From assembly GCA_002104945.1 (NCBI GenBank), contig MCFH01000148.1, positions 1-24,003 of the forward strand: 24,003 nt of DNA. Reading direction: 5' to 3'. Under the pieces are notes generated by a model. It saw only the letters and a list, made by a program, of their open reading frames with translations. It did no database searches and was not told the origin of the DNA. Of this stretch, positions 407-24,003 are shown in pieces; position 1 is the stretch's first letter; every line of letters begins with the position of its first letter. Position numbers and translations under genes: made by a program. The DNA is from Piromyces finnis finn. Taxonomy: Eukaryota > Fungi > Neocallimastigomycota.

Positions 407-907
407 TGTAAAGATTATTAAATAATCAATAATTTAATGATTTATTTAATAATCTTCAAGAGAAAAACTAATCTCTCAATCACAAAATTTTTATTGTGTT
501 ACGTGAACCAAAGTTATTCATCACTTATTGTAACACATAAAATTTATAATAAATAAAGTTCAAAAATTAATGAAAATCTTTTAAAGGATTTTCATAAAGA
601 TTTACATTAAAATTCTTGTCATTTAATATTGTGAAATTAAATTATTATATTTAAGATTCTTAAGGATAGTTTATATTGAATAGCAATATAAATAAAATAG
701 TTACATATATTATAATGTAATCGCAAAAAAATATAAATAGTTCGAAATTTCATGTAAATTTAAATAGTTGTAATTGTTATTGACTATTAAGTAGTTAATA
801 ACATTTTAATAAAAAATAATAAAACTATAAATTAATAAAGTGTCCTTTAAAAAAGAAATTTAGTATTATTGAAGTTTTGTTTAATCTAGTGTTTACAAAA
901 CTTTACA
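407..907 (+). mobile_element. 3' LTR, family A (mirror copy of 6942-7447)
   Basis: Starts TGTAAAG right after the PPT and ends CTTTACA (7-bp terminal inverted repeat). The 3' end resembles that of LTR family B. The right boundary is inferred. Confidence 0.65.
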
Positions 908-1103
908 TTCACTGAATCAAAATTTTAAAGGTGAACTTTAAAGGTGTTTTAAAATAATTATGAAATTATTAATTATAATTATTATATTTAACTAATTATA
1001 GATATTATCTGAATTTGTTTTAAATCCAGTTAATATCTTCACATAATAATTTTATTATGTGAAATATTAATACATGTAATAAAATTATTACATTTACAAT
1101 ACT

Positions 1104-1585
1104 TGTAAGAAATATTTGTAGCCATAAGTTTGCCCCCAAATATTCAATTGAAACCATATATTCTGGTTAACATTTATGGCCAGAATTATGCATAACCATA
1201 TATTAATGGTTATTAATTAAATAGAAAGTTTATTTTCCTTACCCAATCAAGTGGTAAAGGAAATAAACTAATATAGTTAAATAGTATAGTGGAAACAAAT
1301 GCTAAATATTTAGCATTAGTATTAAAGTAAATTAATAACTATAATAATAATTAATGTACAATAATTATAACTAATAAATAAAAGATATAATTAAAATAGT
1401 TATTTAAGTAAATTTATTTCACAATAATATTTATTTGTTTATATTTATTTTGTGTTATAACATTTATTTTAGTTCTTTTATTATTTTTTATAAAACTTTA
1501 TTTAGTTATTAACTCGTATAGAGAGTTAATAACTAACTTAACTTATTTATTAACTTATTAACTAATTTATAATAAACCTTTTACA
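1104..1585 (-). repeat. Dispersed ~480-bp repeat D with TGTAA...TTACA ends (solo-LTR-like); mirror of 6260-6744
   Basis: Reverse complement of 6260-6744 and homologous to about 12943-13421. Confidence 0.6.
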
Positions 1586-2150
1586 ATTGTAGTAATTTTA
1601 TTGTAATATTTATGACAAATAATACAATACAATTACTTATTGATAACTCAATATTAAAATTTAATATTAAATTATATGTATATAGAAGGAAAATAATAAA
1701 AATTAAATATGAAATTAAGACTAGAACTTAACGAGTTTATTATAAGGATATATGATAAACAACAAAAAACACAAATGGGAAGAAGGACGAGAATGAAATG
1801 TAAATATAAGAATTATGTTTATTAATAATATGATTTTTTAATACTAAACTTAAAATGTCATTCTTTACTATATCTTGAAATTTTTTTTCTTCACCACATT
1901 CTACAGGATTTATAAAAAATCAATAAACTTAATAGGATTAATAGATTTTGTGAAATCGAATTTCAAATTATTGTAGGCATCATAATATCCATTAATCCAT
2001 ATATTAAATTCTGACATAAATAAAGGAAATGCTGTTAAACATAACATTTTTCATCTGGAACAATAAAATTAACTTGACTCGTAAATGTCTCACCACTCGA
2101 CATACTTTTAGATTTTTGTAAAGCGTATTCAGCTGAAGTATCTATGGCAG

Positions 2151-2863
2151 TGTAAAATTTTTATAAATGTAAAACAGATTATAAAATTTTTTACAATAAA
2201 ACAACAACACAAAAAAAGAAAAAAACAAGAAAAAAATTATTTAAAAAAAATATCTCTTTTTATTAATTTTACTTAGTTATTAACTAAATAATAGTCAATA
2301 ACAATTACATTGTTTTAATCAAGAAATTTTACATGTATTTATATTTTTTGTAAATTATATTTTAATATACTATTTATTTAGTTATACATATATTCAATAT
2401 AAAATAAACAAAACTAATTTAATACTAATTTAATTAAATAATAAAATGAATAAACTAAACTAAAACTAATTAAATACACTTTTGATTCAATTTGAGTGAA
2501 TTGCAAATTGAATACAGTCCATGTATTACCTATATATTAATTAAATATTAATAATACTATTATTATATATTTAAATTAAAAATGCTAATTTAAAATACGC
2601 TAAAGTTATTAAACTAATTTTAATTAAATAAAACTTTTAAAATTTAATTTGAATATTAAAATATTTAAATTTAATTATCCATTAATTAAATATTTATCCA
2701 AATTCCATTTCTAATTTTGATATTTTAAAATTAATCTTTATTTAATTATTCCATAAAATTTATACAATAATTTATAAACAATTTTCATTAAAATAATCAA
2801 AATTATTATTCAATAATTATATATTATATTTAAATAATTTAAAGATATACTTTTATCTTTACA
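2151..2863 (-). mobile_element. 3' LTR, family B (mirror of 4969-5691)
   Basis: TG...CA ends, adjacent PPT at about 2864-2874, homologous to the solo LTR at 20488-21190. Confidence 0.85.
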
Positions 2864-3949
2864 ACTCGCCCTTTAAGTCGGGCTCCTGCGAGATTATTTC
2901 TTTGAAGGAATATCAATTACAAAATGGTTGATATCTGTGTCTGATCATACCATTGTTATTCCTTGTATAAACTTGATCTTGACTTTCTTTTCTAGACTTT
3001 TTGTTTTTTCTATAAAATTCTTGGATCAATTGTACATCTGAAATTTGATCTTCCGGGATCCAAGTATTTTCGTCAAGATTTTTCCATGTCATCAAGAAAG
3101 ATTTCTTTCCATGACAATTTCTTTCTTGAATAATCTATCAGGAATCCTATCAATAGTATCAGTAGTTAACTTAATATTTTTTCTTTTATTTATTACTGAT
3201 CATTATAAATTCATTTTCGTTATAAGGTTCTAATAACGAAACATGAAAAACAGGGTGACAACGTAAATGTTTGGTAACTTTAATTCAAATGCTAAAGACT
3301 TACCTTCTTGATTATTTCAAATGGTCCAAGCATTTGATCAGCGAGCTTTCTTTAATATTTTTTGTTGGAAGGATTAATACCTTTTAATAACCAAACTTTT
3401 TACCAACTTCGAAACTTGGGGATTCCATTCTTTTTTGGTCAGCATACTTTTTGTAGGTTCTTTTGCTTGATCAAGATTTTCTTTTAAAAATTTAATGTTT
3501 TCATTAATATCCAAAATTCTTTGTTCAGCTCTATTTGGTCTATTTGCTGAAGGAATTTCAGGATTGAATTTTGGATTGAACCCATAATTAGCGAAAAACA
3601 GAGATTGATTGATTGATTGCTGTAAAGTATTGTTATATAAGCAAATTCAGCAAAAAGGTAACAAATCAACCCAGTTATTCTGTTTTCGTTAATAAAACAA
3701 CGGAGATATTGTTCCAATATCCCGTTCACCCTCTCCGTTTGACCATCAGTTTCAGGATGGTTTGCAGTAGAAAAAGCAAGTTTAATATTTAACAAATTAC
3801 ATAAGCGATTCCAAAAGTCTGAAGTAAATTGAGTACCTCGATCAGAAATGATGGAATCAGGAAAACCATGTAATTTAAAGATATTGTTAACAAAACATCA
3901 GCTGCTATAGAAGCAGTAGGCAGACATCTAAAGGAATAAATGAGCCATT
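2864..3949 (-). pseudogene. Gypsy element B integrase core and chromodomain, frameshifted, truncated at the fold-back centre
   Basis: ORF 3484-3795 contains STANHPETDGQTERVNGILEQYLRCF. ORF 2913-3095 contains the chromodomain-like MTWKNLDENTWIPEDQISDVQLIQEF. Confidence 0.9.
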
Positions 3950-4968
3950 TTTTGTTAACAATATCTTTAAATTACATGGTTCCTGATCATCATTCTGATC
4001 GAGTACTCAATTTACTTCAGACTTTTGGAATCGTTTATGTAATTTGTTAAATATTAAACTTGCTTTTTCTACTGCAAACCATCCTGAAACTGATGGTCAA
4101 ACGGAGAGGGTGAACGGGATATTGGAACAATATCTCCGTTGTTTATTAACGAAAAACAGAATAACTGGGTTGATTTGTTACCTTTTTGCTGAATTTGCTT
4201 ATAACAATACTTTACAGCAATCAATCAATCAATCTCTGTTTTTCGCTAATTATGGGTTCAATCCAAAATTCAATCCTGAAATCCTTCAGCAAATAGACCA
4301 AATAGAGCTGAACAAAGAATTTTGGATATTAATGAAAACATTAAATTTTTAAAAGAAAACTTGATCAAGCAAAAGAAACCTACAAAAAGTATGCTGACCA
4401 AAAAGAATGGAATCCCCAAGTTTCGAAGTTGGTAAAAAGTTGGTTATTAAAAGGTATTAATCCTTCCAACAAAAATATTAAAAGAAAGCTCGCTGATCAA
4501 ATGCTTGGACCATTTGAAATAATCAAGAAGGTAAGTCCTTTAGCATTTGAATTAAAGTTACCAAACAATTTACGTGTCACCCTGTTTTTCATGTTTCGTT
4601 ATTAGAACCTTATAACGAAAATGAATTTATAAATAGATCAGTAATAAATAAAAGAAAAAATATTAAGTTAACTACTGATACTATTGATAGGATTCCTGAT
4701 AAGATTATTCAAGAAAGAAATTGTCATGGAAAGAAATCTTTCTTGATGACATGGAAAAATCTTGACGAAAATACTTGATCCCGGAAGATCAAATTTCAGA
4801 TGTACAAATGATCCAAGAATTTATAGAAAAAACAAAAAGTCTAGAAAAGAAATCAAGATCAAGTTTATACAAGGAATAACAATGGTATGATCAGACACAG
4901 ATATCAACCATTTGTAATTGATATTCCTTCAAAGAATAATCTCGCAGGACCCGACTTAAGGGCGAGAT
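3950..4968 (+). pseudogene. Mirror copy of element B integrase/chromodomain with PPT
   Basis: ORF 4044-4352 is the integrase core. aagggcgagat precedes TGTAAAGAT at 4969. Confidence 0.9.
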
Positions 4969-5691
4969 TGTAAAGATATAAAGTATATCTTTAAATTATT
5001 TAATAATAATTAATAATTATTGAATAATAATTTTGATATTTTAATGAAAAATTGTTTATAAAATTTATGTATAAATTTTATGGAATAATTAAATAAAGAT
5101 TAATTTTAAAATATCAAAATTAGAAATGGAATTTGGATAAATATTTAAATTAATGGATAATTAAATTTAAATATTTTAAATATTCAAATTAAATTTTAAA
5201 AAGTTTTTATTAATTAAAATTAGTTTAATAACTTTAGCGTAGTTTTAAATTAGCATTTTTAATTATAAATATATAATAAATAGTATTATTAATATTTAAT
5301 TAATATATAGGTAATACATGGACTGTATTCAATTTGCAATTCACTCAAATTGAATCAAAAGTGTATTTAATTAGTTTTAGTTTAGTTATTCATTTTATTA
5401 TTTAATTAAATTAGTATTAAATTAGTTTTGTTTATTTTATATTGAATATATGTATAACTAAATAAAATAGTATATTAAAATATAATTTACAAAAAATATA
5501 AATACATGTAAAATTTCTTGATTAAAACAATGTAATTGTTATTGACTATTATTTAGTTAATAACTAAGTAAAATTAATAAAAAGAGATATTTTTTTTAAA
5601 TAATTTATTTTCTTGTTTTTTTCTTTATTTTGTGTTGTTGTTTTATTGTAAAAAATTTTATAATCTGTTTTACATTTATAAAAATTTTACA
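4969..5691 (+). mobile_element. 3' LTR, family B
   Basis: TGTAAAGAT...AATTTTACA. Both ends align with the TSD-defined solo LTR at 20488-21190. Confidence 0.85.
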
Positions 5692-5965
5692 CTGCCATAG
5701 ATACTTCAGCTGAATACGCTTTACAAAAATCTAAAAGTATGTCGAGTGGTGAGACATTTACGAGTCAAGTTAATTTTATTGTTCCAGATGAAAAATGTTA
5801 TAGTTTAACAGCATTTCCTTTATTTATGTCAGAATTTAATATATGGATTAATGGATATTATGATGCCTACAATAATTTGAAATTCGATTTCACAAAATCT
5901 ATTAATCCTATTAAGTTTATTGATTTTTTATAAATCCTGTAGAATGTGGTGAAGAAAAAAAATTT
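5692..5965 (+). pseudogene. Coding fragment cut by LTR B, possibly a DDE (IS4-like) transposase remnant; mirror at about 1885-2150
   Basis: Open frame AIDTSAEYALQKSKS-MSSGETF...WINGYYDAYNNLKFDF begins at the LTR edge. The family guess comes from motif resemblance only. Confidence 0.3.
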
Positions 5966-6259
5966 CAAGATATAGTAAAGAATGACATTTTAAGTTTAGT
6001 ATTAAAAATCATATTATTAATAAAACATAATTCTTATATTATACATTTCATTCTCGTCCTTCTTCCCATTTGTGTTTTTTGTTGTTTATCATATATCCTT
6101 ATAATAAACTCGTTAAGTTCTAGTCTTAATTTCATATTTAATTTTTTATTATTTTCCTTCTATATACATATAATTTAATATTAAATTTTAATATTGAGTT
6201 ATCAATAAGTAATTGTATTGTATTATTTGTCATAAATATTACAATAAAATTACTACAAT

Positions 6260-6744
6260 TGTAAAAGGTTTATTATAAATTAGTTAATAAGTTAATAAAT
6301 AAGTTAAGTTAGTTATTAACTCTCTATACGAGTTAATAACTAAATAAAGTTTATAAAAAATAATAAAAGAACTAAAATAAATGTTATAACACAAAAATAA
6401 ATATAAACAAATAAATATTATTGTGAAATAAATTTACTTAAATAACTATTTTAATTATATCTTTTATTTATTAGTTATAATTATTGTACATTAATTATTA
6501 TTATAGTTATTAATTTACTTTAATACTAATGCTAAAGTATTTAGCATTTGTTTCCACTATACTATTTAACTATATTAGTTTATTTCCTTTACCACTTGAT
6601 TGGGTAAGGAAAATAAACTTTCTATTTAATTAATAACCATTAATATATGGTTATGCATAATTCTGGCCAATAAATGTTAACCAGAATATATGGTTTCAAT
6701 TGAAATATTTGGGGGCAAACTTATGGCTACAAATATTTCTTACA
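6260..6744 (+). repeat. Repeat D (solo-LTR-like)
   Basis: TGTAAAAGG...TTTCTTACA. Homology with the 12943-13421 copy stops exactly after TTACA. Confidence 0.65.
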
Positions 6745-6941
6745 AGTATTGTAATGTAATAATTTTATTACATGTATTAATATTTCACATAATAAAATTA
6801 TTATGTGAAGATATTAACTGGATTTAAAACAAATTCAGATAATATCTATAATTAGTTAAATATAATAATTATAATTAAATAATTTCAATAATTATTTTAA
6901 AACACCTTTAAAGTTCACCTTTAAAATTTTGATTCAGTGAA

Positions 6942-7447
6942 TGTAAAGTTTTGTAAAACACTAGATTAAACAAAACTTCAATAATACTAAATTTCTTTTT
7001 TAAAGACACTTTATTCTAATTTATAGTTTTATTATTTTTTATTAAAATGTTATTAACTACTTAATAGTCAATAACAATTACAACTATTTAAATTTACATG
7101 AAATTTCGAACTATTTATATTTTTTGCGATTACATTATAATATATGTAACTATTTTATTTATATTGCTATTCAATATAAAACTATCCTTAAGAATCTTAA
7201 AATATAATAATTTAATTTCACAATATTAAATGACAAGAATTTTAATGTAAATCTTTATGAAAATCCTTTAAAAGATTTTCATTAATTTTTTGAACTTTAT
7301 TTATTATAAATTTTATGTGTTACAATAAGTGATGAATAACTTTGGTTCACGTAACACAATAAAAATTTTTGTGATTGAGAGATTAGTTTTTCTCTTGAAG
7401 ATTATTAAATAAATCATTAAATTATTGATTATTTAATAATCTTTACA
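6942..7447 (-). mobile_element. 3' LTR of gypsy element A
   Basis: Follows the PPT at about 7448-7459 on the minus strand; TGTAAAG/CTTTACA termini. Confidence 0.65.
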
Positions 7448-10400
7448 ATCTTCCGTTCTAAGTCGAGTTCCTGCGAGACAGTTGGGGATTACTCTTTGAA
7501 GGAAGTTCGATAACGAATGGATTGTAAGAGTATTTAATTAACTCCTCTTGGGAATTTCTGTCCCCTTCTTTCTTCTACGCTGTTTATTAGTTTTATTTAT
7601 ATACTCTTGAATCAATTGTTTTTCAGGAATCTGATTCTGAGGGATACAGGTACGATCAGAGTCCTCGAAGCCTTTCCAGGAAACCGAATAGAATTATCTC
7701 CATTAATATTTTTCATTGAGTGTTTTTTTCAAGTACTTTTTGATTAAGTCGGGATACAAATGTATGTTTCTTTTTCTACTATAAGGGCGTTTAATATCTT
7801 CGAATTCATAATAGGGTTCTAAGAGAGAAACATGGAAAACAAGATGGCAACGCATAGTTTTAAGTAATTTCAATTTAAAGGAGACTGTACTGATTGATCA
7901 ATGATTCAAATGGTCCAATAAGTTGTTGAGAAAGTTTTTCTTAATACCAGAATTTGTAGATCTTTTCGAAGATAAACTTTGTTACCAATTTTGAAGCAGG
8001 AGGAATGATCTTCTTTTATCAGCATATTTTTTATAAGTTTCTTTAGCTTTATTCAAGTTAGTTTGGTGTAGCTTATATTCTTGTTTATGTCAATAACCTT
8101 TGCTCAACTGAACTAGGATTATCGTTTGAAGGAATAGTTGGATTAAATTTAAGGTGAAATCTGAAATTTGCGAAAAATGGTGATTGTTTCGTAGACTGTT
8201 GTAATGTATTGTTGTATGAAAATTCGGCGAAAGGTAATATATCTACCCAGTTGTTTGCTTTGAATTTATAAAGCAGCGAAGGTATTGTTCCATATTGCAT
8301 TCACCCTCTCCGTTGACCGTCGTTTGAGGATGGTTGGACGGAGAATGGTTAATATCAAGAAGACCACAAAGTCTATTCCAAAATTCAGACGTAAATTGTG
8401 AACACAATGGAATTGGGAAAACCATGAAGTTTGAAAACATGAGTAATGAAAGCGTCGGCAGCGATAGAAGATGTGGGAAGACATCGAAGGGCGATAAATG
8501 AGCCATTTTAGTAAGATGATCAACAACAACCATAATAGTAGTCATATCATGAGATTTGGTAATTCCACGATAAAGTCATTGAGATATCAGACCAAGGTCG
8601 AGATGGTGTATGAAGTGGCATAAGCAGGCCATAAGGTTATGTTTTGGGACTTTTTTTAGAATAAACAACACAAGAGCGAACAAATTTATAAACATCAGAA
8701 TTCAAAGAGGGCCAATAGAAGGAACGTTTGATTAACTCAATAGTCTTGTTGATACCAAAGTGTCCAGCAGTAATGGAATTATGGTGAAGTTTGAGAATGC
8801 GTAGCGAAGTGTCAGAGGAACATACAAAAGTCTTTGTACCAAAAGAGACCAGTATCATCACAGAGACGAAAGGCAGATATATCCTTGCAAGGGGATGAGC
8901 CATACCATTAGTTAGAACTGAGTAACTTTATTATAGAAAGAATCATTAGAAAGTTCATTTTTAATATCTTCGACATGAGAGGAGTTACAAGAGTCATAAG
9001 TAGAAGAATTTTAAACAGAAAAACCATAATCACTGTCCAGAATTATTAGTATTGTTCTGACTTTCGATCATGGCAGGACGACGAGATAGAAGATCAGGTT
9101 TACCAGATTTTTTTCCTGGACGATAGATAAGGTTAAAATTAAATCTTGACAAAAAACATATTCCAGCGGAATTTGTCGTTGCGAGAGCATTTCAGGTTTT
9201 CTAGGAAAAGTGAGGTTCTTGTGATCGGTAAAAATAGTGAATTGGTGGCGAGCACCTTCAATGTAATGACCCATTCCTCAAGTGCAGTCTTAATAGCTAA
9301 GAGTTCCTTATCATAAATAGGATAATTCTTTGAGGTCCGGTAAGACTTTAGAGAGAACGCAATAGGATGAAGTTTACCATCAAATTCTTGAGAAAGTATT
9401 GCACCGAAGCATAATTACTAGCATCAGTTTCAACAATAAATTGTTATTACTATCCGCATGTTTCAGAATAGGAGCTGACATGAACAGAGTTTTTAATAAA
9501 ATAAAAGCGTCCTGATCTTCTTTCATCCAGTTAAAAGCACATTCTTTCTAGTGAGTTTGTGAAGAGGATTTGCAATTTTAGCAAAGTCTTTAATAAAAAT
9601 TCTGTAATAGTTACATAAACAAATAAAAGACTGAACCTCCTTAACATTCTTGGGAACAGACCAATCGAGAATTGCTTTAACTTTATTTCGTCCATTTGCA
9701 ACCCATCTTTTGAAATGACATATCCAGAAAAGTGGTTTCTCAACATCAAACTCACATTTTTCTAATTTAACATAAAGATTATTTTCAAGCAGTTTCTTAA
9801 ATACTTTTTAACATGTTCATGATGTTCTTCGATATTATTAGAATAAATAAGAATATCATCAATATATGAGATAATAAAATCATCTAAATAGTCACTAAGA
9901 ACATCGTTAACGAAGTGTTGAAAAGGTTGTAGGTGCATTCTTTAATCCAAAAGGCATAACCAGATATTCAAAATGTCCATATCTAGTACAAAAAAGCCGT
10001 TTTGTATTCGTCACCTTCTTTATACGAACAAGATTATAAGCGGATTTAAGGTCTAATTTGGTGAAAATCTTAGCATTTTTCACCCTATCCAAAAGGTCAC
10101 TAATTAAAGATAAAGGATATGAATTACGATTGTAATATCATTCAACCTTCTATAATACAAAGTCTTAATGAACCGTCTTTCTTTTTAACAAACAAAATTG
10201 GGGCACCAGCAGGAGACGATGATTTCCTAATAAAACCTTTATTTAAATTATCATCAATATATTTTTTAAGTTCCTCTCTTTCAACTTCAGTTAATGGATA
10301 CAAAGGTCCATAAAATAAAGTTGAATCATCCTTAGCTTGATTTCACAATCATAAGGTCTATGAGGAGGCAACACTTCACAATTTATTTCGTTAAACTCTT

Positions 10401-11143
10401 CACTAGATTCTGAATATTGGGTTGGTACGGCGACCAATTTATCTTTATTAATATTTTTATCATTATTATTACATTCGTTATCACTATTACATGTTTCATT
10501 AATTTTGTTACGGTACATTTGACTTTTTTTATTAAAACTAATATATCATCATCGCTATCATCTTCATCATTAATGGTTCTAACAAGGCGCCTTTAACATA
10601 TTCTTTTTCTTCATTGTTGGGGAGGGTATCTACTTTCGACTTTTTGGTTAAGCTTCGGTCGAGAACATCATGATCTAACTGATCATTCTTCTTTCTTGAT
10701 TTCTCTTTCTTTTCCCATGATTACAGTGTCTGGCGCAGTATCCCGATCCCGAACTAAAATTGATTTTCTTGGAATCATAAAAAGCCCAGGATTGTGTTTT
10801 TAATCCATGGTAATCCCAAGAATTACATCGACACCAGGAACTTTCAAACTATATAATTGAATGGTTCAAAATGATTTCTACACCTTAACATGCACTTTTC
10901 ACTTCTTTCCATTATAAGAGAAATCCCATTATTAACTCCTGAACTCGGAAAGGTTCAATAGTTTCAAATTAATTCCAATTTCTTTAGCAAGTTTCAGGAT
11001 TAATAAACTTAATTCAGAGCCCGAACAACTAAAACTCTAACTTTAACTTCCGGAATATCATTTGTACTTAAATAAAAATCAATAATATTTAAATCTTTTT
11101 TGTTACCCATGACTCCCACTTTATAAATCCTTGGATTAACAAC
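7448..11143 (-). mobile_element. Chromoviral Ty3/gypsy element A internal region: degenerate protease-RT-RNase H-integrase-chromodomain; gag and 5' LTR absent
   Basis: Protease LV[D]SGSEL (~11010, 1-nt deletion) and DVILGLPW (~10810); [11 protein letters not shown]; [34 protein letters not shown] and YIDD; RNase H ETDASNY and FTDHKNL; integrase H2C2 region GHFGINKT...YWP. Many frameshifts. Confidence 0.93.
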
Positions 11144-11417
11144 TCACTCCTTCTCTTTGATGTTTCTCGTCTTGCAATATCTTATATTGGATTGGGCAGA
11201 ACCAAAACATCTCTCCAAGTGGGCACCATAAAGTCTTGGATAAATTCTTTGAATTTTCATATTGTACAAACACATGATAATGTTTTTGTGCCTGTCCAAT
11301 ATGTTCCGTAACCAAAAGATATCTCATCCCAGTAAGAGATTTAAGATAAGTCTTAATATCTTGATAGAATTCTAATGCGATAGGATTTAAAGTTAAAATA
11401 AAATTTTTATAACCCAT
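11143..11417 (-). pseudogene. rep: Rep HUH endonuclease fragment of EVE1
   Basis: MGYKNFILTLNP (motif I) and KHYHVFVQY (motif II). Relative to Rep2, 5-nt and 7-nt deletions put AHLERCFGSAQSNIRYCK (motif III) out of frame. Truncated at the gypsy junction. Confidence 0.9.
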
Positions 11418-11438
11418 AATTTCCATCCGATATGATAG

Positions 11439-12830
11439 ATGTCAGCTGTTGTAGCGGATATTGGCCGAAAAGCAGCACCATATATTAATCAAGCTATAAG
11501 AAAATACGCTAAAGAACAGATTGTTAACGCTAAATATAAATTAGAACAAAAGTATAAACAGACTCAGATTGACAAAGCTTATAAGCAAGATAAGCCAATG
11601 GCTAAAAAAGCTAAGACTAAAAGTAAGCACACGAAAGTTAAGGGCAAAAAGTACAAATCCCGTGGGTTTAAGGTTCGTAGAAGAAGATTTAAAGGAAGAG
11701 CAATTAATGTTAAGGAGGATAGAGAAGGGTATTCAAAGACCTTTAAAAAACAAAAGGTCACTAAACAACAACAACGAAAGATTAACCGAAGATTTAAGAA
11801 CGGATATTCACCGTTCAAAGAGTGTATTGAAGACGCCTTTCAAGAAACCATTCTTCAAGTTACAGGAAAATGCAAATGGATCTGGAGATGTCACAATCAC
11901 CTGGAATATTTAAGTAAGACCTTTGCTAACTGGCCTTGTTATTCAGGTAACCCAGGTACAATCCCAACATATGCTAAACAAGATAAGTATTTAACATCAC
12001 CTAATCAAGAAGTATACTTTTCACAATTTAAGCATACTTATGAAATATATAACCCGACTAATTATGATATGAATCTTGTTATATATGATATTGTTGCTAA
12101 ACAAGATAGTACAGATAGTGTTGTTAATGCTAATTATAATTATTATAATGATCCAGCTAATTCAGCACATCGTAATCCTATTAGATGTATAGAGTTAGGG
12201 TTAAGTGCGGGTAATGGTCAGTATACAGCCTATGAAAGCAGCACTACACAGTATCCTATTGTAGCAGATAGTACAGCTAAAGAACTCCATGATATTACTC
12301 TTGGACCTACAGAAAGTTACCCCTTCAATATATATTGGACTATAGTTAAAAAGAGAACATTCAAATTACAACCTGGTGCGACCATGGTACATAAATTTAT
12401 TCATAAACCAAAGGCTCTGGTTAGTAGAGGATATTGGGGGTATAGATATGGTAAGGATATGAAAATGGGTGATGGAGATAGTCGTAGAGCTATCAAAGAT
12501 ATCACCTCTGGATGTTTATTTAAGTATTGGGGTCAAGTCTCTGGTTCAGCCTATTCCACTGGTTCAGGACCTACAGGAGATGGTCAGTATGTTAATATGA
12601 CACAAATGCATGACCAAGTAACCACTTTAAGTGGTCGTATTATGTTCAAAGAATATATAGAAAATAAATGGTATTTTATGAATGAAAGATATACATTTAC
12701 CTTTAAAACAGATCTTAACACATATAAACCTTCTGATGAAGAAGACCTACCTGTTGTTAATGATGCAGAAGTTAAACCATCAACTGATGCTGATGGAACA
12801 GGTATGGACACAGATAATCCAGTTAATTAA
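11439..12830 (+). CDS. cap: CRESS-DNA virus capsid protein, 463 aa, intact
   Basis: K/R-rich N-terminal arm. Conserved blocks shared with 17645-19114 (YEIYNPTNYDMNLVIYDI, YPFNxYW, LQPGAT, WGQVSG, TLSGRIM). Ambisense to rep. Capsid identity is inferred from context, not from a database search. Confidence 0.85.
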   Translation: MSAVVADIGRKAAPYINQAIRKYAKEQIVNAKYKLEQKYKQTQIDKAYKQDKPMAKKAKTKSKHTKVKGKKYKSRGFKVRRRRFKGRAINVKEDREGYSKTFKKQKVTKQQQRKINRRFKNGYSPFKECIEDAFQETILQVTGKCKWIWRCHNHLEYLSKTFANWPCYSGNPGTIPTYAKQDKYLTSPNQEVYFSQFKHTYEIYNPTNYDMNLVIYDIVAKQDSTDSVVNANYNYYNDPANSAHRNPIRCIELGLSAGNGQYTAYESSTTQYPIVADSTAKELHDITLGPTESYPFNIYWTIVKKRTFKLQPGATMVHKFIHKPKALVSRGYWGYRYGKDMKMGDGDSRRAIKDITSGCLFKYWGQVSGSAYSTGSGPTGDGQYVNMTQMHDQVTTLSGRIMFKEYIENKWYFMNERYTFTFKTDLNTYKPSDEEDLPVVNDAEVKPSTDADGTGMDTDNPVN

Positions 12831-12876
12831 ACACATGTAAATATAAAACAATAAATAAATAAAAGATATGGGTGTA

Positions 12877-12891
12877 AAATAAACTTTATTT
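12877..12891. terminator. Candidate bidirectional poly(A) signal AAATAAA-C-TTTATTT in the viral 3' intergenic region
   Basis: Lies between the convergent cap and rep stops. The identical motif is present in EVE2 at 19164-19178. Confidence 0.5.
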
Positions 12892-12940
12892 AATTTATTA
12901 TAATTCTAGTGTTATCTACATTATCAATAACTTCATAATT
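12890..12940 (-). pseudogene. rep: Rep C-terminal tip of EVE1
   Basis: NYEVIDNVDNTRIIIN* matches the Rep2 end EYSVEDTVDNTRIVIN*. Confidence 0.85.
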
Positions 12941-16109: not shown

Positions 16110-17220
16110 TTATCCTTTTCGGTTATTTAGTAAAATCCATAATGAATTATCATTATCATTATTGCAACTTGTAAAGATATCAAACGCCTCAACTTGATAT
16201 CTTTAATGTAACTTAAGCCACAAGTATTATTGTTTAAGTTACACAAATTATATTCAGAAAAAGAAAATGAGACATAATTTATTTATTAATAATTAAAGTT
16301 TAAAACAAAATAAATTATTAATTTATTTTTAATGTTTAACAAGTAAATTAATATTCTCAATTTAAATCCCTAGTTTTAGTGTTGTTTTTTTATAGAAATA
16401 GATAAATAATAAATGATTAATATATCAATAATACATGGGCACATATTCAAATTAAATAGTACTTAATTTGAATTGCCAATTGTATTTTACTAAAAATAGT
16501 TATAGTTTAAATATTTATTAATAATTAAGATTTTAGTGTAGATTTTAAATAATAATATATAAGAAATAAATAGTTATAATATAATATAAATGTATTTAGG
16601 AAAAATATAAATAGAAGATATTTTTCATCATTTTATCGATGTAATTGTTATTATTAAAATTCTATTATAATAAAAGATATTTTTAATAAAACAATTTTTA
16701 TTTTTATTTTAAATTTAGTGTTATTGTAATAGAATAGATATCCTAATCTATTCTTTCAGTGTTCAACATTACACAACTTCCATAAATAATCTTACTATCG
16801 ATTCCTTTACTTTCTAAAACTTGTAAACATTTATCGAAATAAGTATTATAAAACTTTATTATTTGTGATTTAGGATCTATAATTGGGAAGTAGTTATTAT
16901 CTTCGAGATCAAACGATAATTTCCACACACTTTTATTTTCGGTACAGTTTATTAATTTCAGTGTTCCGGTTTCTTCGTTAATAATTTCTATACATTTATT
17001 ATTATATTGTAATAAATTTGAGTTTATATTATTAAATTTATTACTATCCTTACACAATTCAATATTTAGTGCTGCTGTTTGATTGGCGTTTATGGTTAAG
17101 CATAAGGAACAGTCGTAGACATTCACTAAATATCCGTCTTTATGGTTGTTATAGTCTGGTATGTACCATTGTTGGGATTCATCGTCAGGATTACAAATAT
17201 CTAGAATAGCTTCGTACTTT
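16110..17220 (-). pseudogene. Ricin-B/beta-trefoil lectin-like gene remnant, split by a solo LTR and 5'-truncated by viral DNA
   Basis: LDICNPDDESQQWYIP, CLTIN, NKCIEI, SVWKL, DKCLQV. Removing the LTR and one TSD restores IIYGSCNNDNDNSLWILLNNRKG*. Confidence 0.7.
16170..16773 (+). mobile_element. Solo LTR, family C, with 5-bp TSD CAACT
   Basis: TGTAAAGATATC...CATTACA. CAACT at 16165-16169 and 16774-16778. Near-identical to the reverse complement of 21953-22570. Confidence 0.95.
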
Positions 17221-17263
17221 ATGCTAAAGGATTAACTGTCAAAATGAAATTTTTGGAAGTCAT
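17221..17263 (-). pseudogene. rep: Rep N-terminal stub of a third virus (EVE-X)
   Basis: MTSKNFILTVNPLA*, compared with MGAKNFILTLNPSAL and MGYKNFILTLNPIAL. It sits directly beside a nonanucleotide. Confidence 0.85.
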
Positions 17264-17310
17264 CGTTCGAAAAGCTGTCTGTATAGTATTACCTAGGATA
17301 GCTTACGGAC
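17263..17310 (+). other. Left (hybrid) rolling-circle origin; nonanucleotide TAGTATTAC at 17284-17292
   Basis: Imperfect 5' arm aagctgtctg and 3' arm ctaggatagctt. Confidence 0.9.
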
Positions 17311-17320
17311 GAAAACGTTC

Positions 17321-17330
17321 TTTATATATT
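17321..17330. promoter_or_regulatory. Candidate TATA element next to the origin (also at 20228-20237)
   Basis: tttatatatt is conserved after both origins and reads TATATAAA on the minus strand toward rep. Confidence 0.45.
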
Positions 17331-17644
17331 TTTTCGCGTAACACATGAAAAAATTTTTAATTGGATAAGCCTCTAAATATTATTGACCAATAATATTTGA
17401 GGCGTTTACATTATTGTATACAATAATGTATAATATATTGTAATGTACATTAAATTAAAATACATTAATTTAATTAATTACAACATAAAGTATCGTGACA
17501 CATAGATGTCACGTGATAAGAAATTCAGAATATGTAATTCGATGGCATGAAAAAATCAAAAAAAAATAGTCGAACTTTCGACACCTCGACAAGTCCGGCC
17601 TAAAGAAAAAAAAAAGATTTTTTCAGCGGAAAGCAGAATGAAAT

Positions 17645-19114
17645 ATGGCGAATGGAGTATCAGGTGACCTATTTGGAACCTTATTTTCTCTGAAAAGTAT
17701 AAAAAGAGAAAATATTTCTCCCTTTTTCTTTATGGGAAAATACAATTTTCCTAGTTTTAATACTAGAGTCGATTATTCTAACGCGTTAAAAGCTTTAGCT
17801 GGTGCAGCAGTCGGTTCTTTTACGAGTTCTATGAGTAAAGGTAGGAAAAAGGGTAATGGAAAGTACCCGAGTGGTGGAGGTAAGTCCTCTAGACGTAGAA
17901 AGACTGGAAGAAAGTCGAAGCCCAAGTTTATTGGATTACCAGTCGGTACTAAAACAAGAAAGAGACGTAAGTACAATAGAGTCAGGAATGTCAAGGCCGA
18001 TGTCAATGGATATACAAAGACATTTAAGAAACAAAGGGTTACTAAACAACAACAACGTAAGATTAATAGAGCATTTAAAGAAGGCGTTAGTCCATATGTT
18101 ATTCAAGATGAGTTTAATTATCTTGATACTAAACCTGGTTCTACTAATGCTGTTAAGTGGGTATGGGAGTGTAATGCTACTTTTAGAAATCTTTGCGACG
18201 CTTGGCAAATGACCAATGTTACAGATAATCAACAGGCATCTGGAAACAATAATAGTTTTGGACCTTCAGTTCAATATTCACAAATGACTGAAAATAATGC
18301 TCTCTATTTTAGTCAACATCAATATAAATATGAAATTTATAATCCTACTAATTATGATATGAATCTTGTTATTTATGATATAATTTGTAAGGAAGAAACT
18401 CCTGGAAGTGTTGAAAGAGGTGGATGGGATAAAAGAAGTACTATTCAGAATGAATTGTCTAGTACTGATTATTTCACTCCTGTTAATCTAATGTGTAGAG
18501 GTAATGATGGTATTGCAGATGTTGTTCCTGGTACAGGATATACAGGAGATTTGGCTATTGTAACAGATTCTAGTTCGCGTACTGGAACAGATGTATTTGA
18601 TATACAAATGAAACCCACTGATAGTTATCCTTTTAATGTTTATTGGAAGGTCGTTAAAAAAAGAATTTTAAGATTACAACCTGGTGCAACACATACGCAT
18701 GTGTTTACATATAGACCGAAAATGCTCTTAAAAAGAGGTTATTGGGCATGGAAGTATAAAAAACATTTTAAAAATATTTCCAATACCATGGCCAATGCAG
18801 GTATTCCTGGATTTACTTGTGGTACACTATTTAAATTTTGGGGACAAGTAAGTGGTGATACTGAAAGTTCACAAATAACAGATGGTACTGTTGTACAACC
18901 TTCTAATAGAGTTTGTACTTTAAGTGGTAGAATAATGATTAAAACATTCCATGAACAAAAACATTATAGAATTGATCCAAAGACTAAATATACACTTGTA
19001 AAACATCAACAACAATGGACTCCAGTTGATGAAGAAGATTTACAAGTTGTTACAGATGTTCATATATCAGATCCAAATGATGATAGAATACCAGAATCAC
19101 AGTTTGGTGATTAA
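17645..19114 (+). CDS. cap: CRESS-DNA virus capsid protein, up to 489 aa (true start may be a downstream Met), intact
   Basis: R/K-rich arm SRRRKTGRKSKPK...RKRRKYNR; conserved blocks shared with the EVE1 capsid; converges on rep. Confidence 0.87.
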   Translation: MANGVSGDLFGTLFSLKSIKRENISPFFFMGKYNFPSFNTRVDYSNALKALAGAAVGSFTSSMSKGRKKGNGKYPSGGGKSSRRRKTGRKSKPKFIGLPVGTKTRKRRKYNRVRNVKADVNGYTKTFKKQRVTKQQQRKINRAFKEGVSPYVIQDEFNYLDTKPGSTNAVKWVWECNATFRNLCDAWQMTNVTDNQQASGNNNSFGPSVQYSQMTENNALYFSQHQYKYEIYNPTNYDMNLVIYDIICKEETPGSVERGGWDKRSTIQNELSSTDYFTPVNLMCRGNDGIADVVPGTGYTGDLAIVTDSSSRTGTDVFDIQMKPTDSYPFNVYWKVVKKRILRLQPGATHTHVFTYRPKMLLKRGYWAWKYKKHFKNISNTMANAGIPGFTCGTLFKFWGQVSGDTESSQITDGTVVQPSNRVCTLSGRIMIKTFHEQKHYRIDPKTKYTLVKHQQQWTPVDEEDLQVVTDVHISDPNDDRIPESQFGD

Positions 19115-19180
19115 TAAATGTAAATATAAAACAATTAATAAATAAATAAATGGGTATGGTGTAAAATAAACTTTATTTAA

Positions 19181-20167
19181 TTAATTTATTACAATTCTTG
19201 TGTTATCTACAGTGTCTTCAACACTATATTCTTCTAACTGGTTAAAGTCAGTTCTATAACCAATTGGAAGACCACCTAAATGAACTCTTTCAGGTGGGTA
19301 CATGTTAATTAATTCTATTCTTCTTTCCCACTGTTCTCTTCTTTCAAATTCATCTACATTTCTATAGATAGATGAAAGTTTTTGAACAGAAGTAAAAATG
19401 ATTAATTTATAATTATTTTTAGCAGAACCACCTTTAATATTTAAATTATGAACTCTATAATCAATTAAATTAATAAATTCTTCCGGTTTCATAACACCAG
19501 CTCTAAAGTCATCAAAGACAGCAACTTCAGATGGATTATCTAAAGTTATACCAGAATAAAAACCAGATTTATCGTACTTTAATTCATCAAAGTACATTTC
19601 ATCTGGGTCTTCAATACCTTTATCGTTATAGTATTTTCTAATTAATTCTTCAGCCCTTTCTGATTTTCCTATAGCAGAAGGGCCTTGGATGTAATAAACC
19701 TTTACGTGCTTTCTCCAAGAACCTAATGATAATCTGTTCTTCTTCTGTAAATTTATCTTCTGATAAGTGTTGTAGAGTATTGCAGGCAACTCCTTTGGGT
19801 CGTTGCAATCCTCTAGATAACCTATTGTAAAATTTCCACCTTTAAGAACTGGTTCACCTTCTTCTTAAATAAGCATAGCAGTAACTCCTTCTCTAACATG
19901 TTTCTCATCTTCTGCTTTACAATATCTTATATTTTGTTGAGCAGAACCATAACAACGTTCTAAATGAGCACCTTTAAGTCTTCTAATAGATAAATTCTTT
20001 GAATTTTGATATTGAACAAAAATATGGTAGTGTTTTTGTGCTTGACCTATATGTTCAGTAACCAAAAAATACTTCAATCCCACTAAAGATTTAAGATAAG
20101 TTTTGATGTCAGCATAAAATTCCAAGGCACTTGGATTCAAAGTTAAAATAAAATTTTTCGCACCCAT
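19181..20167 (-). pseudogene. rep: Full-length Rep (HUH endonuclease plus SF3 helicase, 328 codons) with one in-frame TAA at 19865-19867
   Basis: Motif I FILTLN, II HYHIF, III YCKAE; Walker A GPSAIGKS, Walker B VFDDF, motif C IIFTSV, Arg-finger-like WERRI. The two ORF-track pieces are in one frame (...AMLI*EEGEPVLKGG...). Confidence 0.95.
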
Positions 20168-20177
20168 AGTCCGATAA

Positions 20178-20212
20178 AAGCTATCCTAGTATAGTATTAC
20201 CTAGGATAGCTT
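20178..20212 (+). other. Right rolling-circle origin stem-loop; TAGTATTAC at 20192-20200
   Basis: Perfect 12-bp stem aagctatcctag/ctaggatagctt with an 11-nt loop. Confidence 0.97.
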
Positions 20213-20247
20213 ACGAACGAAACGTCCTTTATATATTTTTTCGCGTT

Positions 20248-20368
20248 ATAATAATTTGGGCATGGACACTTCCACGACACTTAGATTTTTTTTTTCAAAA
20301 ATTAAAAATTTCCATTTTTTGAAAAAAAAATCTAAGTGTCGTGGAAGTGTCCATGTCCAAATTATTAT
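20248..20368. repeat. 55-bp-arm inverted repeat with 11-nt loop
   Basis: 20248-20302 pairs with 20314-20368 with one G-T mismatch. It extends to 20242-20374 with wobble pairs. Confidence 0.95.
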
Positions 20369-20487
20369 GACGTGCCAGTGTCCATAATTTTTTGGGTCGT
20401 CCGGCGAAACGACCCTTAGGACGAGCAATGTCACAATAACATAAAAATTTAAAAAATTTGGACACATGGAAAAGAATTCAAAGTATA

Positions 20488-21190
20488 TGTAAAGATATAA
20501 TATATATCTTTAGATTATTTAATAACGAATTATTAATTATCAAATAATAAATTAATATTTAGTAAAATTAATTATAAAATTTTTGAATAAATTTTATGGA
20601 ATAATTTAATAATAAATTATTTTATAATAATTCCGTTATATTTAAATTAAGATAAATATTTAAATTTAAGGAATAAAAGAATTTTAATTAAATTTAAATA
20701 TTTCAAATATTTTAAATAATTAAAATATTTTTTAAATACTTTTTATTTAATTTTAGAATAAATTATATTTTTTTATTTAAATTTAGAATAACTTAATAAT
20801 TTTAACTTAGTTTTAATTCAATTTTGAGTTTACTCAAATTGAATTAAAAGTATAATGAATTTGTTTTAGTTTAGTTCTTTTATTTTATTATTTAATTAGA
20901 TTAGTGTTGTTTATTTTATATTAAATATATGTTTATTTAAATAGAATAATATGTTAGAATATAATTATGAAAAAATATAAATACATGTAATTTTTGTTTA
21001 TTAAATCGATGTAATTGTTATTTTCAATTTTTTAATTATTAACTATTATATAGTTAATAATATTTTTAAGAGTTTAAATAAAAATGTTTTTTTTAAAAAT
21101 AAAAATTTAATGTTTTATTTTTTATTTTTGTGTTAATAAAAATTGTTTTGTTTTAAGTATGAAATCTGTTTTAAATCTTATACTTTTACA
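20488..21190 (+). mobile_element. Solo LTR, family B-related, with 5-bp TSD GTATA
   Basis: TGTAAAGATAT...TTTTACA. GTATA at 20483-20487 and 21191-21195. Collinear with 4969-5691. Confidence 0.93.
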
Positions 21191-21952: not shown

Positions 21953-22570
21953 TGTAATGTTGAACACTGAAAGAATAGATTAGGATATCTATTCTATTAC
22001 AATAACACTAAAATTTTAAAATAAAATAAAAAAAATTGTTTTATAAAAATATCTTTTATTATAATAGAAATTTTATTAATAACAATTACATCGATAAAAT
22101 GATGAAAAATATCTTCTATTTATATTTTTCCTAAATACATTTATATTATATTATAACTATTTATTTCTTATATATTATTTTTTTAAAAGCTACACTAAAA
22201 TCTTAATTATTAATAAATATTGAAACTATAACTATTTTTAGTAAAATACAATTGGCAATTTAAATTAAGTACTATTTAATTTGAATATGTGCCCATGTAT
22301 TATTGATATATTAATCATTTATTATTTATATATTATTTACCTATTTCTATAAAAAAACATATTAAAACTAGGGATTTACATTGAGAATATTAATTTACTT
22401 GTTAAATATTAAAATAAATTAATAATTTATTTTGTTTTAAACTTTAATTATTAATAAATAAATTATGTCTCATTTTCTTTTTCTGAATATAATTTGTGTA
22501 ACTTAAACAATAATACTTGTGGCTTAAGTTAAATTAAAGATATCAAGTTGAGGTGTTTGATATCTTTACA
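21953..22570 (-). mobile_element. 3' LTR of gypsy element C
   Basis: Reverse complement is near-identical to 16170-16773. PPT agagagagagat at about 22571-22583. Confidence 0.93.
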
Positions 22571-23933
22571 ATCTCTCTCTCTAAGTCGAGTTCCTGCGAG
22601 ATTAATTTATAAAAAATACTTTCTCGAAGGAATTTCAATTACAAATGGTTGGTATCTGTGCTTGATTAAACTACCAACTTTATTCTTTCTAATTTCATGG
22701 AGGAGTCGCTCGACTTATGTTTTAATTTTTTAGAGTTATTTTCAAACTCTTGTATTAATTGTTTATCTGAAATCTGATCTTCAGAAGGTGAATTTATCAA
22801 ATTCTTTCCACGATAACTTATAAAATGTTTCACCATTGACAGATTTCATCTTCTCAATTTTTCTCTGGAATTTTTCAATAAAAATCTGTGTTAGGGTGAA
22901 TATTCCTCTTCCTACGGTTAGATCTATCGTTAAATTCATTTTCAAAATTATAGTTTTAACAATGAAACATGAAAAACTGGATGACATCTCATTGTCTTTG
23001 GAAGTTTCAATTTGAAAGAGAGAGAACTAATCTTTTCAATAATTTCAAAATGGGCCAAGCATTTGAGGTGCTAATTTCTTCTTTAAGTTAGTTCCAGGAG
23101 AATCTTTCAATAAACCATACCTTCTTTCCCACTTCGAATTCCGGGGTAATCATTCTTTCATATCGGCATATTTCTTATATGTTTCTTTAGTTTTTTTTTT
23201 TTTTAATTTTTCCTTTAATAATTTAAAGTTTTCATTCATATCAATATACTCTTGTTTAGCTCTACTAGGTCTATCATTAGCTGGAATTCTAAGCTGAACT
23301 TTGGATGAAAACCATAATTAGCAGAGAATGGGGATTGATTTATAGATTGTTGTAAAGTATTATTATATGCAAATTCAGCAAATGGGATAAGATCAACCCA
23401 GTTATTCTGTTTTTTATTTATAAAACAACGGAAATATTGTTCTAATATGCCGTTCACCCTCTCCGTTTGACCATCTGTCTGCGGATGGTTAGCAGTCAAT
23501 AATGAATGATTGATATTAAGAAGGTCACAAAGTCTTGACCAAAAATCAGAAGTAAATTGCGAGCCTCTATCAGAGATAATGGAATCAGGAAGACCATGCA
23601 AACGGAAGACATTAGTAATAAAAGCATCAGCAGCAATCGAAGCAGTAGGAAGACAACGTAAAGGAATGGCGTGAGTAAATTTAGTAAATCTATCGACAAC
23701 AACCATGAGAGTTGTCATATCTCTGGACTTCGGAAGATCAACAATAAAGTCGATAGAGATATCAGACCAAGGCCTACTATGAGTGTCCAGGGGGATAACA
23801 ATCCGTAAGGCTTATGTCTGGGGACTTTGGATTTGCAACAATTCACGCAAGATTTGATAAAAGATTTAACGTCTGAATGAAATCTTGGCCACCAAAAGTT
23901 TCTGGAAATCAGTTCAGTGGTTTTCTTAATACC
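22571..23933 (-). pseudogene. Gypsy element C integrase and chromodomain, frameshifted
   Basis: ORF 23236-23718 VVVDRFTKFTHAIP...SDRGSQFTS...HPQTDGQTERVN; FYKLSWKEFDK...EDQISDKQLIQE; upstream KKTTELISRNFWWP. Confidence 0.92.
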
Positions 23934-24003
23934 TGTAAAAATTTTAAAATTTAAAACAGATTATAAAATTTTTTACAATAAAACAAAAACACTAAATAAA
24001 ATA
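23934..24003 (-). mobile_element. End of a family-B LTR inserted into the element C integrase (runs off the window)
   Basis: Matches 2151-2220 (aaaacagattataaaattttttacaataaaacaa). Confidence 0.88.

What the first reader, a model, noticed from the sequence alone, without database searches (positions are those of the whole stretch)
17221..20482. A whole viral circle recombined precisely into another virus's replication origin (attP/attB-like geometry)
Seen: the 2908-nt EVE2 is flanked by identical 27-bp direct repeats (gtatagtattacctaggatagcttacg) containing the nick site. The outer flanks are not EVE2 sequence: the left Rep stub differs (MTSKNFILTV vs MGAKNFILTL) and the right intergenic region diverges from the left one after about 60 nt. 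The extended stem arms pair crosswise. gtccg (20169-20173, before the right origin) pairs with cggac (17306-17310, after the left origin). tcgttcg (17263-17269, before the left origin) pairs with cgaacga (20214-20220, after the right origin). So the inner unit closes into one self-consistent origin and the two flanks close into a second, different origin. Known: HUH Reps cleave and rejoin at NANTATT|AC, origins are recombination hotspots in ssDNA viruses, and AAV Rep mediates site-specific integration. Inference: either a resident endogenous origin acted as a landing pad for a later virus, which could build viral arrays iteratively, or an origin-joined heteroconcatemer formed during co-infection and then integrated.
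Basis: partly seen in the sequence, partly recalled or inferred. Interest (0 to 1): 0.95.

Follow-up and report, generated by a model that had tools for sequence, protein, structure and literature searches.

The report
Virus genome nested in another's origin
A gut-fungus chromosome holds one whole small circular-DNA virus genome between two copies of its replication origin, with a piece of a different, related virus on at least one outer side; the viruses likely recombined where their own enzyme nicks the origin, which could explain how such viruses pile up in host chromosomes.

Summary
An exact 27-bp repeat with TAGTATTAC lies at 17281-17307 and 20189-20215, 2908 nt apart, around a complete CRESS-virus unit (Cap open; Rep with one stop). 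Read-derived contigs bridge both junctions (left: 1 run; right: 3 runs, 3 studies), so it is no assembly collapse. The host is Piromyces finnis by a named gene model. The left flank is another virus (Rep codons 1-14 only 28/42 nt alike), fused to a host lectin gene.

The attP/attB reading is overstated. The crosswise pairing rests on one covarying base pair. The two flanks re-form only 2 bp of stem next to the loop, against 12 bp for the inner circle and 8-12 bp in 10 of 11 relatives. So the exchange was not a clean reciprocal crossover, or the flanks come from two molecules. The right flank's hairpin is repeated in the genome, without this origin. No empty allele or free circle was seen.

Most likely Rep-primed recombination at origins made a mixed multimer that integrated (0.45). 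A resident origin used as a landing pad stays open (0.33). My searches found no report of these viruses in gut fungi.

The parts
16170..16773 (.). Solo LTR (context) with 5-bp target duplication CAACT, inserted in the lectin gene's 3' part; 589/601 aligned letters match the inverted copy at 21953-22570
16774..17225 (-). Host ricin-type beta-trefoil lectin gene fragment; its 5' part is missing here and the viral stub stands in its place
   Evidence: Pfam PF00652 E 1.7e-4, below cut-off; atlas 0.96 with low recognition; contig branch at about 17225 and a paralog matching to 17222
17222..17263 (-). Rep codons 1-14 of outer virus B (MTSKNFILTVNPLA); 17222-17225 may be shared with the host gene
   Evidence: 28/42 nt identical to inner Rep; 5 synonymous and 4 non-synonymous codon changes; 12/14 residues match free relatives P0031, P0033, P0037
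17263..17281 (+). Outer (B-type) 5' arm of the left origin: 7-nt extension and a stem arm that does not match the adjoining 3' arm next to the loop
17281..17307 (+). Left copy of the 27-bp repeat; nonamer TAGTATTAC 17284-17292; predicted nick 17290/17291
   Evidence: nick position from known Rep biology (recalled); bridged by X1 contig 17196-18760 with 0 differences
17308..17731 (+). Inner virus A intergenic region: TATA-like box on the minus strand and a row of hairpins
   Evidence: z -5.6 for 17340-17540
17732..19114 (+). Capsid gene of virus A, open, 460 aa from this ATG (another in-frame ATG lies upstream)
19181..20167 (-). Rep gene of virus A (HUH motifs I-III, SF3 helicase), one in-frame stop at codon 101 (19865-19867)
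   Evidence: 322/328 identical to P0122 on a 2937-nt contig
20168..20188 (+). Inner (A-type) 5' arm of the right origin; perfect 12-bp stem with either 3' arm
20189..20215 (+). Right copy of the 27-bp repeat; nonamer 20192-20200; predicted nick 20198/20199
   Evidence: bridged by contigs of X1, X2 and X4
20216..20246 (+). Origin-proximal right flank, 29 of 32 alignment columns identical to the inner virus's equivalent
20244..20477 (.). Right flank: a hairpin of about 57 bp (20244-20372) and a second hairpin; the part 20277-20443 is repeated in the genome
   Evidence: z -18.8 and -4.0; contig depth 3046 against 187-192
20488..21190 (.). Solo LTR (context) with 5-bp target duplication GTATA, just beyond the right flank; AT-rich host-like DNA follows

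Best explanation
One complete CRESS-virus genome (A, 2908 nt) lies between two origin copies with foreign viral DNA outside, and it most likely arose by Rep-primed recombination at the origins of co-infecting related viruses, giving a mixed multimer of which a 3.3-kb piece likely integrated afterwards. Shown: the unit, the foreign left flank, both junctions in reads, the join to a host lectin gene. Inferred steps: (1) Rep nicks an outer (B-type) origin in the shared loop. (2) The free 3' end primes synthesis on circle A and runs one full round. (3) Synthesis either overruns the second origin by 9-17 nt and switches back in the shared stretch 20208-20215, or joins a third, A-like genome at the nick; either way the right 3' stem arm ends up A-type. 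(4) The multimer breaks about 60 nt left and 270 nt right of the origins and is end-joined into the chromosome, on the left into a lectin gene over about 4 shared letters. (5) A solo LTR later inserts beside the right end and Rep gains a stop. This is a replicative copy-in, not an integrase-type reciprocal crossover.
For: Exact repeat with the nonamer, unit length 2908, close to the 2937-nt contig of a 98%-identical relative. Left flank is another virus: 28/42 nt, 5 synonymous codon changes. Divergence after insertion is excluded: at 8.5% change per copy about 10 stops are expected in Cap+Rep, P(at most 1) = 0.0004. Stem asymmetry, 12 bp vs 2 bp, against 8-12 bp in 10 of 11 distant relatives. 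The right proximal flank is 29/32 like A while the left flank is 67% like A, which suits a three-molecule join. Origins are recombination hot-spots, synthesis primed on a circle can run more than one round, and the stem is corrected by local copy-choice (PMC3187698, passages and section 2.2). No orthogonal target pairs were found for Reps of one family (PMC7826260, passages). At least five Rep types are endogenous in this genome (stub B, A, EVE1, P0002, P0079), so repeated infection by this lineage is on record.
Against: It needs two breaks close to the two origins; a resident eroded relic explains the short flanks more simply. The right-flank hairpin belongs to a family repeated in the host genome (about 16 times the depth), which suits a resident origin. 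Nothing here dates B before or with A. The offset breakpoint assumes that B's own 3' arm matched its 5' arm; no B genome was found.
Confidence: 0.45

Rival explanations
1. Landing pad. A short origin-bearing relic of virus B was already in the chromosome. During a later infection Rep of virus A nicked it and the break was repaired by copying the whole A circle, with a short conversion tract on the right. Repeated use would build viral arrays.
For: The insert is whole and nearly intact while the flanks are only about 60 and 270 nt and join host DNA directly. One compensatory pair links the two flanks. The hairpin is multi-copy in the genome. A second contig with a different Rep start joins the same hairpin at near-equal spacing (record 2; 114 vs 118 letters, inferred from record positions). 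EVEs cluster: EVE1 lies 4.3 kb away; four different Cap models (62-78% alike) and one Rep share a contig length of 154,777 nt in Piromyces sp. E2. AAV is a precedent for Rep-linked site preference (PMC3187698).
Against: No empty-allele joint among the 14+4 joints. Only 2 of 37 contigs laid from X1 carry the origin at 80% likeness, and other hairpin copies lack 20216-20273, so repeated use is not shown. The flanks do not re-form a normal stem. Clusters of endogenous CRESS sequences are known in plants (PMC7758297) and this window is a retrotransposon graveyard, so clustering needs no landing pad.
Confidence: 0.33
2. Only the left junction is heterologous. The right side is a 48-nt overrun into an A-like origin region, joined over the 3 letters 20244-20246 to a host palindromic repeat (MITE-like). 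The hairpin is not viral.
For: The hairpin piece is about 16-fold deeper and its 3' end far deeper still. Its left arm starts exactly where likeness to A ends. It has no significant likeness to A's intergenic region (220 and 42 of 300 shuffles score as well). No related virus holds the 18-mer tested; the one hit is in a 60-kb contig.
Against: A second, different Rep start lies at near-equal distance from the same hairpin. Virus A also has hairpins right behind the shared region. An overrun of A itself would not carry 3 changes in 32 letters, one of them compensatory to the left arm.
Confidence: 0.15
3. A tandem 1.1-mer of one virus integrated and its two ends diverged afterwards.
For: The ends are homologous over 115 nt; tandem endogenous copies are known in plants (PMC5014472).
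Against: 14 of 42 letters differ in Rep codons 1-14 without a frameshift while Cap is open over 460 codons; P(at most 1 stop) = 0.0004 at the needed divergence.
Confidence: 0.03
4. Assembly collapse of separate insertions at the shared 27-mer.
For: The window looks like a redundant contig: both Caps also lie on a 348,583-nt contig and 161-7694 is one large inverted duplication.
Against: Contigs bridge the left junction (85 letters beyond the core, 0 differences) and the right junction (88, 63 and 45 letters beyond, in X1, X2, X4). Four X1 contigs tile 17196-20303 at even depth 183-192. No single listed contig spans the whole insert, and the left junction rests on X1 alone, which may be the assembly's own sample.
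Confidence: 0.02

Closest known systems
Origin (v-ori) recombination hot-spot and recombination-dependent replication of circular ssDNA viruses (PMC3187698)
   Same: Breakpoints at the nonanucleotide hairpin; multimers longer than one unit; local copy-choice in the stem
   Different: Here both junctions of one event are preserved in a chromosome, around a whole genome, between viruses only 67% alike at the Rep start
Endogenous geminiviral repeats: GRD of Nicotiana, EGV1 of yam (PMC5014472, PMC7758297)
   Same: Chromosomal CRESS-virus DNA with Rep and origin, clustered in hot-spots
   Different: Those are described as repeats of one integron, with truncated Rep (GRD) or without a capsid gene named (EGV1); here one full Rep+Cap unit has a foreign viral flank, in a fungus
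AAV Rep-linked integration on human chromosome 19 (named in PMC3187698; mechanism recalled)
   Same: A HUH Rep virus inserted at a site that resembles its own origin
   Different: AAV is linear and its target is host DNA; here the candidate target is another virus's origin and chromosomal targeting is not shown
Integrase-type attP x attB recombination (recalled)
   Same: A circle bounded by direct repeats of a shared core
   Different: No integrase in the unit; the flanks do not re-form a normal origin, so a single reciprocal crossover fits poorly
Cressdnavirus EVEs that reveal gut-protist hosts (PMC9615429)
   Same: Gut-associated CRESS lineage linked to a microbial eukaryote host through EVEs
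   Different: Host is an anaerobic gut fungus; no fungal genus name tested was found in that paper's text or held supplement

Membership tests
CRESS-DNA virus (Cressdnaviricota) | Rep with HUH motifs I-III | tested here: met
   FILTLN at 6, HYHIF at 46, YCKAE at 82 (motif names recalled); PF02407 E 1.7e-5, 25.4 bits, just under the cut-off of 26
CRESS-DNA virus (Cressdnaviricota) | SF3 helicase domain in the same Rep | tested here: met
   PF00910 26.8 bits over cut-off 21.5; 3 solved Rep sequences matched by profile A1
CRESS-DNA virus (Cressdnaviricota) | Capsid gene | tested here: met
   37% to two records named capsid (P0134, P0136); atlas 0.97 to a Cressdnaviricota capsid cluster, recognition below threshold; no Pfam or PHROG hit
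CRESS-DNA virus (Cressdnaviricota) | Stem-loop origin with nonanucleotide | tested here: met
   12-bp stem, 11-nt loop, z -4.5
CRESS-DNA virus (Cressdnaviricota) | Circular ssDNA in virions | not testable with these tools
   No circle joint; many relatives lie on contigs of 2.7-3.2 kb
A named CRESS family | Rep phylogeny against family references | not tested
   No reference set held; tree of 122 hits only
attP x attB site-specific integration | Direct repeat of a common core around the insert | tested here: met
attP x attB site-specific integration | Dedicated integrase encoded by the element | tested here: not met
   The long ORFs of the unit are Rep and Cap
attP x attB site-specific integration | One reciprocal crossover: both parents re-form | tested here: inconclusive
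   Inner parent re-forms 12 bp, outer only 2 bp next to the loop; outer parent itself not found
attP x attB site-specific integration | Empty target site exists | tested here: inconclusive
   None among joints of 4 runs; contigs drop rare forms; no other strain could be read
Tandem endogenous repeats (GRD/EGV type) | Head-to-tail copies of the same element | tested here: not met
   One unit; left flank 28/42 nt alike; even depth along the unit
Rolling-circle transposon (Helitron/IS91-like; features recalled) | Dispersed copies of the unit with the same ends | tested here: not met
   2 of 37 laid X1 contigs carry the origin, the two junctions; the second assembled copy is probably redundant

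The most novel reading that the evidence does not exclude
Relic CRESS origins in gut-fungus chromosomes are landing pads: Rep of an incoming related virus nicks the resident origin and the whole incoming circle is copied in, leaving two new origins that can be used again, so the fungus archives its viruses in arrays. The repeated hairpin would be an amplified viral intergenic relic, and the multi-capsid contig of Piromyces sp. E2 a grown array.
Probability: 0.3. Interest if true: 0.85.

Novelty: new variant of a known kind. Interest (0 to 1): 0.55.

Why it matters
Origin recombination in ssDNA viruses is usually inferred from released recombinants that keep one origin breakpoint. This locus keeps both junctions of one event, so the exchange can be read directly, and it looks non-reciprocal. 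If the target was chromosomal, it is a natural case of Rep-directed insertion of a whole circle at an earlier virus's origin, and a route to EVE clusters. Separately, near-intact EVEs in Piromyces and Neocallimastix point to anaerobic gut fungi as the likely host of a large gut CRESS lineage (136 Rep and 74 Cap clusters), one member 98% identical to the insert; my searches found no report of that link.

Tried and rejected
No whole genome is held for this window, so other EVE loci could not be read. Origin 21-mer in viral contigs: 0 hits. Rep alone in viral contigs: 0 of 11 candidates. Rep alignment: 11 of 89 viral and 3 of 81 metagenome candidates, all distant, 21-53%; none shares the hairpin. 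Hairpin 18-mer: 1 hit in a 60-kb contig, taken as chance. Loose origin pattern: 25 hits, 23 with stems of 4 bp or less, 2 small contigs with 10-bp stems and no Rep match. Rfam: 17 microRNA-precursor matches on the hairpin, all under gathering score. Phage collection and PHROGs: no match. Longer homologs of the lectin: 0 of 200; the 50%-representative search never ran, so the lead that P0002 is the other half of virus B is untested (weak evidence against: P = 0.024 for so many N-terminal differences). No RNA holder on record; the hairpin-to-Rep depth ratio in X4 (13-16) equals that in DNA, so no expression is claimed. X5 and X6 have no cover of the insert: no evidence either way. The stub could not be placed in a clade: 14 residues are too few. 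Earlier findings: none for this genome or these sequences. Paper searches for this virus-host link: 0 papers; 1 unrelated; 1 on dsDNA viruses; 0 (Helitron/CRESS terms); none of the fungal names tested in the held supplements of PMC9615429 and PMC10193959. Subscription papers are not searched; the survey by Zhao, Lavington and Duffy 2021, cited in PMC9615429, was not read and may list these EVEs.
Full report
SETTING. The window is AT-rich eukaryotic DNA full of decayed LTR retrotransposons. A Rep search returned a Piromyces finnis gene model (ORX36977.1) on a contig of 24,003 nt, the window's length, that is identical to the window's Rep in all 300 aligned residues. So the host is an anaerobic gut fungus. 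No whole genome was held.

THE OBSERVATION. A second copy by chance is expected 2.6e-12 times. TAGTATTAC occurs only at 17284 and 20192 in the window. Between the predicted nick sites lies a full CRESS unit, virus A: hairpin-rich intergenic region (z -5.6), open Cap of 460 aa, and Rep of 328 codons with HUH and SF3 motifs and one stop at codon 101. An unbroken relative, P0122, is 322/328 identical and lies on a 2937-nt contig, so A is a young insertion and 2.9 kb is its natural size (inference).

JUNCTIONS ARE REAL. In run X1 one contig covers 17196-18760 with no difference and one covers 19436-20303 with no substitution and 2 gap letters; with two more contigs they tile the insert at depth 183-192. 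Contigs of X2 (19658-20278) and X4 (20090-20260), from two other studies, bridge the right junction with no difference. The left junction rests on X1 alone, which may be the assembly's own sample, and no single listed contig spans all. None of the 14+4 joints listed shows a closed circle or an empty allele; contigs drop rare forms. Two unrelated unique contigs have depth 180.5 and 195.7, so A looks single-copy (a rough hint; the tool warns that depth is no copy number), although both Caps are assembled on two contigs.

LEFT FLANK IS ANOTHER VIRUS. Rep codons 1-14 are 28/42 nt identical to A, in frame, with 5 synonymous and 4 non-synonymous codon changes; free relatives P0031, P0033 and P0037 match 12 of 14 residues. 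Divergence after insertion would have given about 10 stops in Cap and Rep; P(at most 1) = 0.0004. The stub is fused at about 17222-17226 to a host ricin-type lectin fragment; the gene's 5' part is not found on the right side, where a solo LTR (20488-21190, target duplication GTATA) and 14%-GC DNA follow.

The inner circle re-forms a perfect 12-bp stem. The two flanks re-form only 2 perfect pairs next to the loop, plus an 8-bp duplex with one G.T set back from it and the 7-bp extension. In distant relatives the perfect stem is 8-12 bp in 10 of 11 loci that carry the nonamer (L013 has 4; L003 was counted across the contig ends; 3 of 14 loci had no nonamer); PMC7826260 gives 9-11 bp for three families (passages). 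The right 3' arm is therefore of A type. The crosswise gain of 8.1 kcal/mol comes essentially from one covarying pair, 17267T/20216A against 20171C/17308G; given a change at that place, a match has about one chance in two or three (my estimate). Behind the core the right flank is 29/32 like A, while the left flank is 67% like A. So either one outer virus B was entered at the loop and left 9-17 nt past the second nick, or the flanks come from two molecules. A single reciprocal crossover works only if B had a mismatched stem.

THE RIGHT FLANK. From 20244 it folds into a hairpin of about 57 bp (z -18.8) and a second hairpin (z -4.0). The piece 20277-20443 is a contig of depth 3046 in X1, about 16 times the insert, and 106-135 against 8.4 in X4. 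Other copies lack 20216-20273: of 37 X1 contigs laid at 80% likeness only 2 carry the origin, the two junctions (30 pieces of table 8 were not shown, but the depth bins leave no room for a third). One unique contig (789 nt, depth 196) has a different Rep start, 35/43 alike, continuing E-D-I-L-Q-Y-L-R-R-L (read by hand from its loose end), and joins the hairpin across about 114 letters, against 118 here (spacing inferred from record positions). That favours the hairpin being a native intergenic region of related viruses, later amplified in the host; a host repeat is not excluded. No free genome with this hairpin was reachable.

MECHANISM. PMC3187698 (passages; section 2.2 whole) describes origins as recombination hot-spots, synthesis primed by a broken end that runs several rounds on a circle, and local copy-choice that keeps the stem palindromic. 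These known steps give exactly an origin-bounded whole genome with foreign flanks and an A-type right arm. I put about 0.8 on Rep-linked origin recombination of some kind. Where it happened is open: in free viral DNA before integration (0.45) or at a resident relic (0.33). For the first: known biology, flanks that may come from two molecules, no empty site, no repeated use seen. For the second: a whole, near-intact insert inside two short relic-like flanks, a right flank that belongs to a repeated family, and clustering of different EVEs here and in Piromyces sp. E2 (four Caps, 62-78% alike, and a Rep with one contig length). A host-repeat right flank takes 0.15; tandem divergence and artefact 0.05 together.

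WHAT IS KNOWN. It works like origin recombination of circular ssDNA viruses and resembles endogenous geminiviral repeats (PMC5014472, passages; PMC7758297, passages), but those are described as repeats of one element. It is not an integrase system: no integrase, and the outer parent does not re-form. Virus A meets the CRESS criteria tested; its family was not tested. Searches for CRESS EVEs in gut fungi found nothing relevant (PMC9615429 passages and one supplement file; PMC10193959 two supplement files only; PMC7017919 seen as a listing only). Papers outside the library were not searched. An earlier unchecked note of this scan (e1-8214073) reports a Rep-only circle opened at its origin in a giant virus; it is an analogy, not support.

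VERDICT. Real, unusual and partly over-read: a new variant of a known kind. Interest 0.55; landing-pad case probability 0.3, interest 0.85 if true.

Noticed in passing
window 11136-12920: A second EVE (EVE1): open Cap of 463 aa, Rep broken and lacking its middle, only about 25 nt between the Rep and Cap starts, and no TAGTATTAC origin; the origin and intergenic region seem to be deleted right after the TCCGATA shared with virus A.
   Followed up: partly
window 161-7694: One large inverted duplication at 85-100% with its centre near 3920-3950; may be a long-read fold-back artefact. Both Caps also lie on a 348,583-nt contig, so the window may be a redundant contig.
   Followed up: no
window 20277-20477: Hairpin piece at about 16 times the depth of the insert, its 3' 45 nt far deeper; a possible non-autonomous element or amplified viral intergenic relic.
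   Followed up: partly
P0179, P0185, P0191, P0195, P0024: Four different capsid gene models (62-78% alike) and one Rep share a contig length of 154,777 nt in Piromyces sp. E2; two have adjacent gene numbers.
   Followed up: partly
P0002 (ORX42374.1) and window 17214-17225: This P. finnis Rep model starts near codon 17-19 after ...S-T-K-Y, while the stub here ends at codon 14 before host ...S-I-K-Y; it may be the reciprocal junction, or chance.
   Followed up: partly
window 19868-20167: The stop at codon 101 leaves all three nuclease motifs upstream of it, so a nicking domain without helicase could still be encoded.
   Followed up: no
window 16110-17225: A host ricin-type lectin gene cut by a solo LTR at its 3' part and by the viral stub at its 5' part; reads suggest another identical copy and paralogs.
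   Followed up: partly
window 2854-4982, 7534-11060, 22572-23960: Several decayed Ty3/gypsy retrotransposon pieces with nested LTRs around both EVEs.
   Followed up: no
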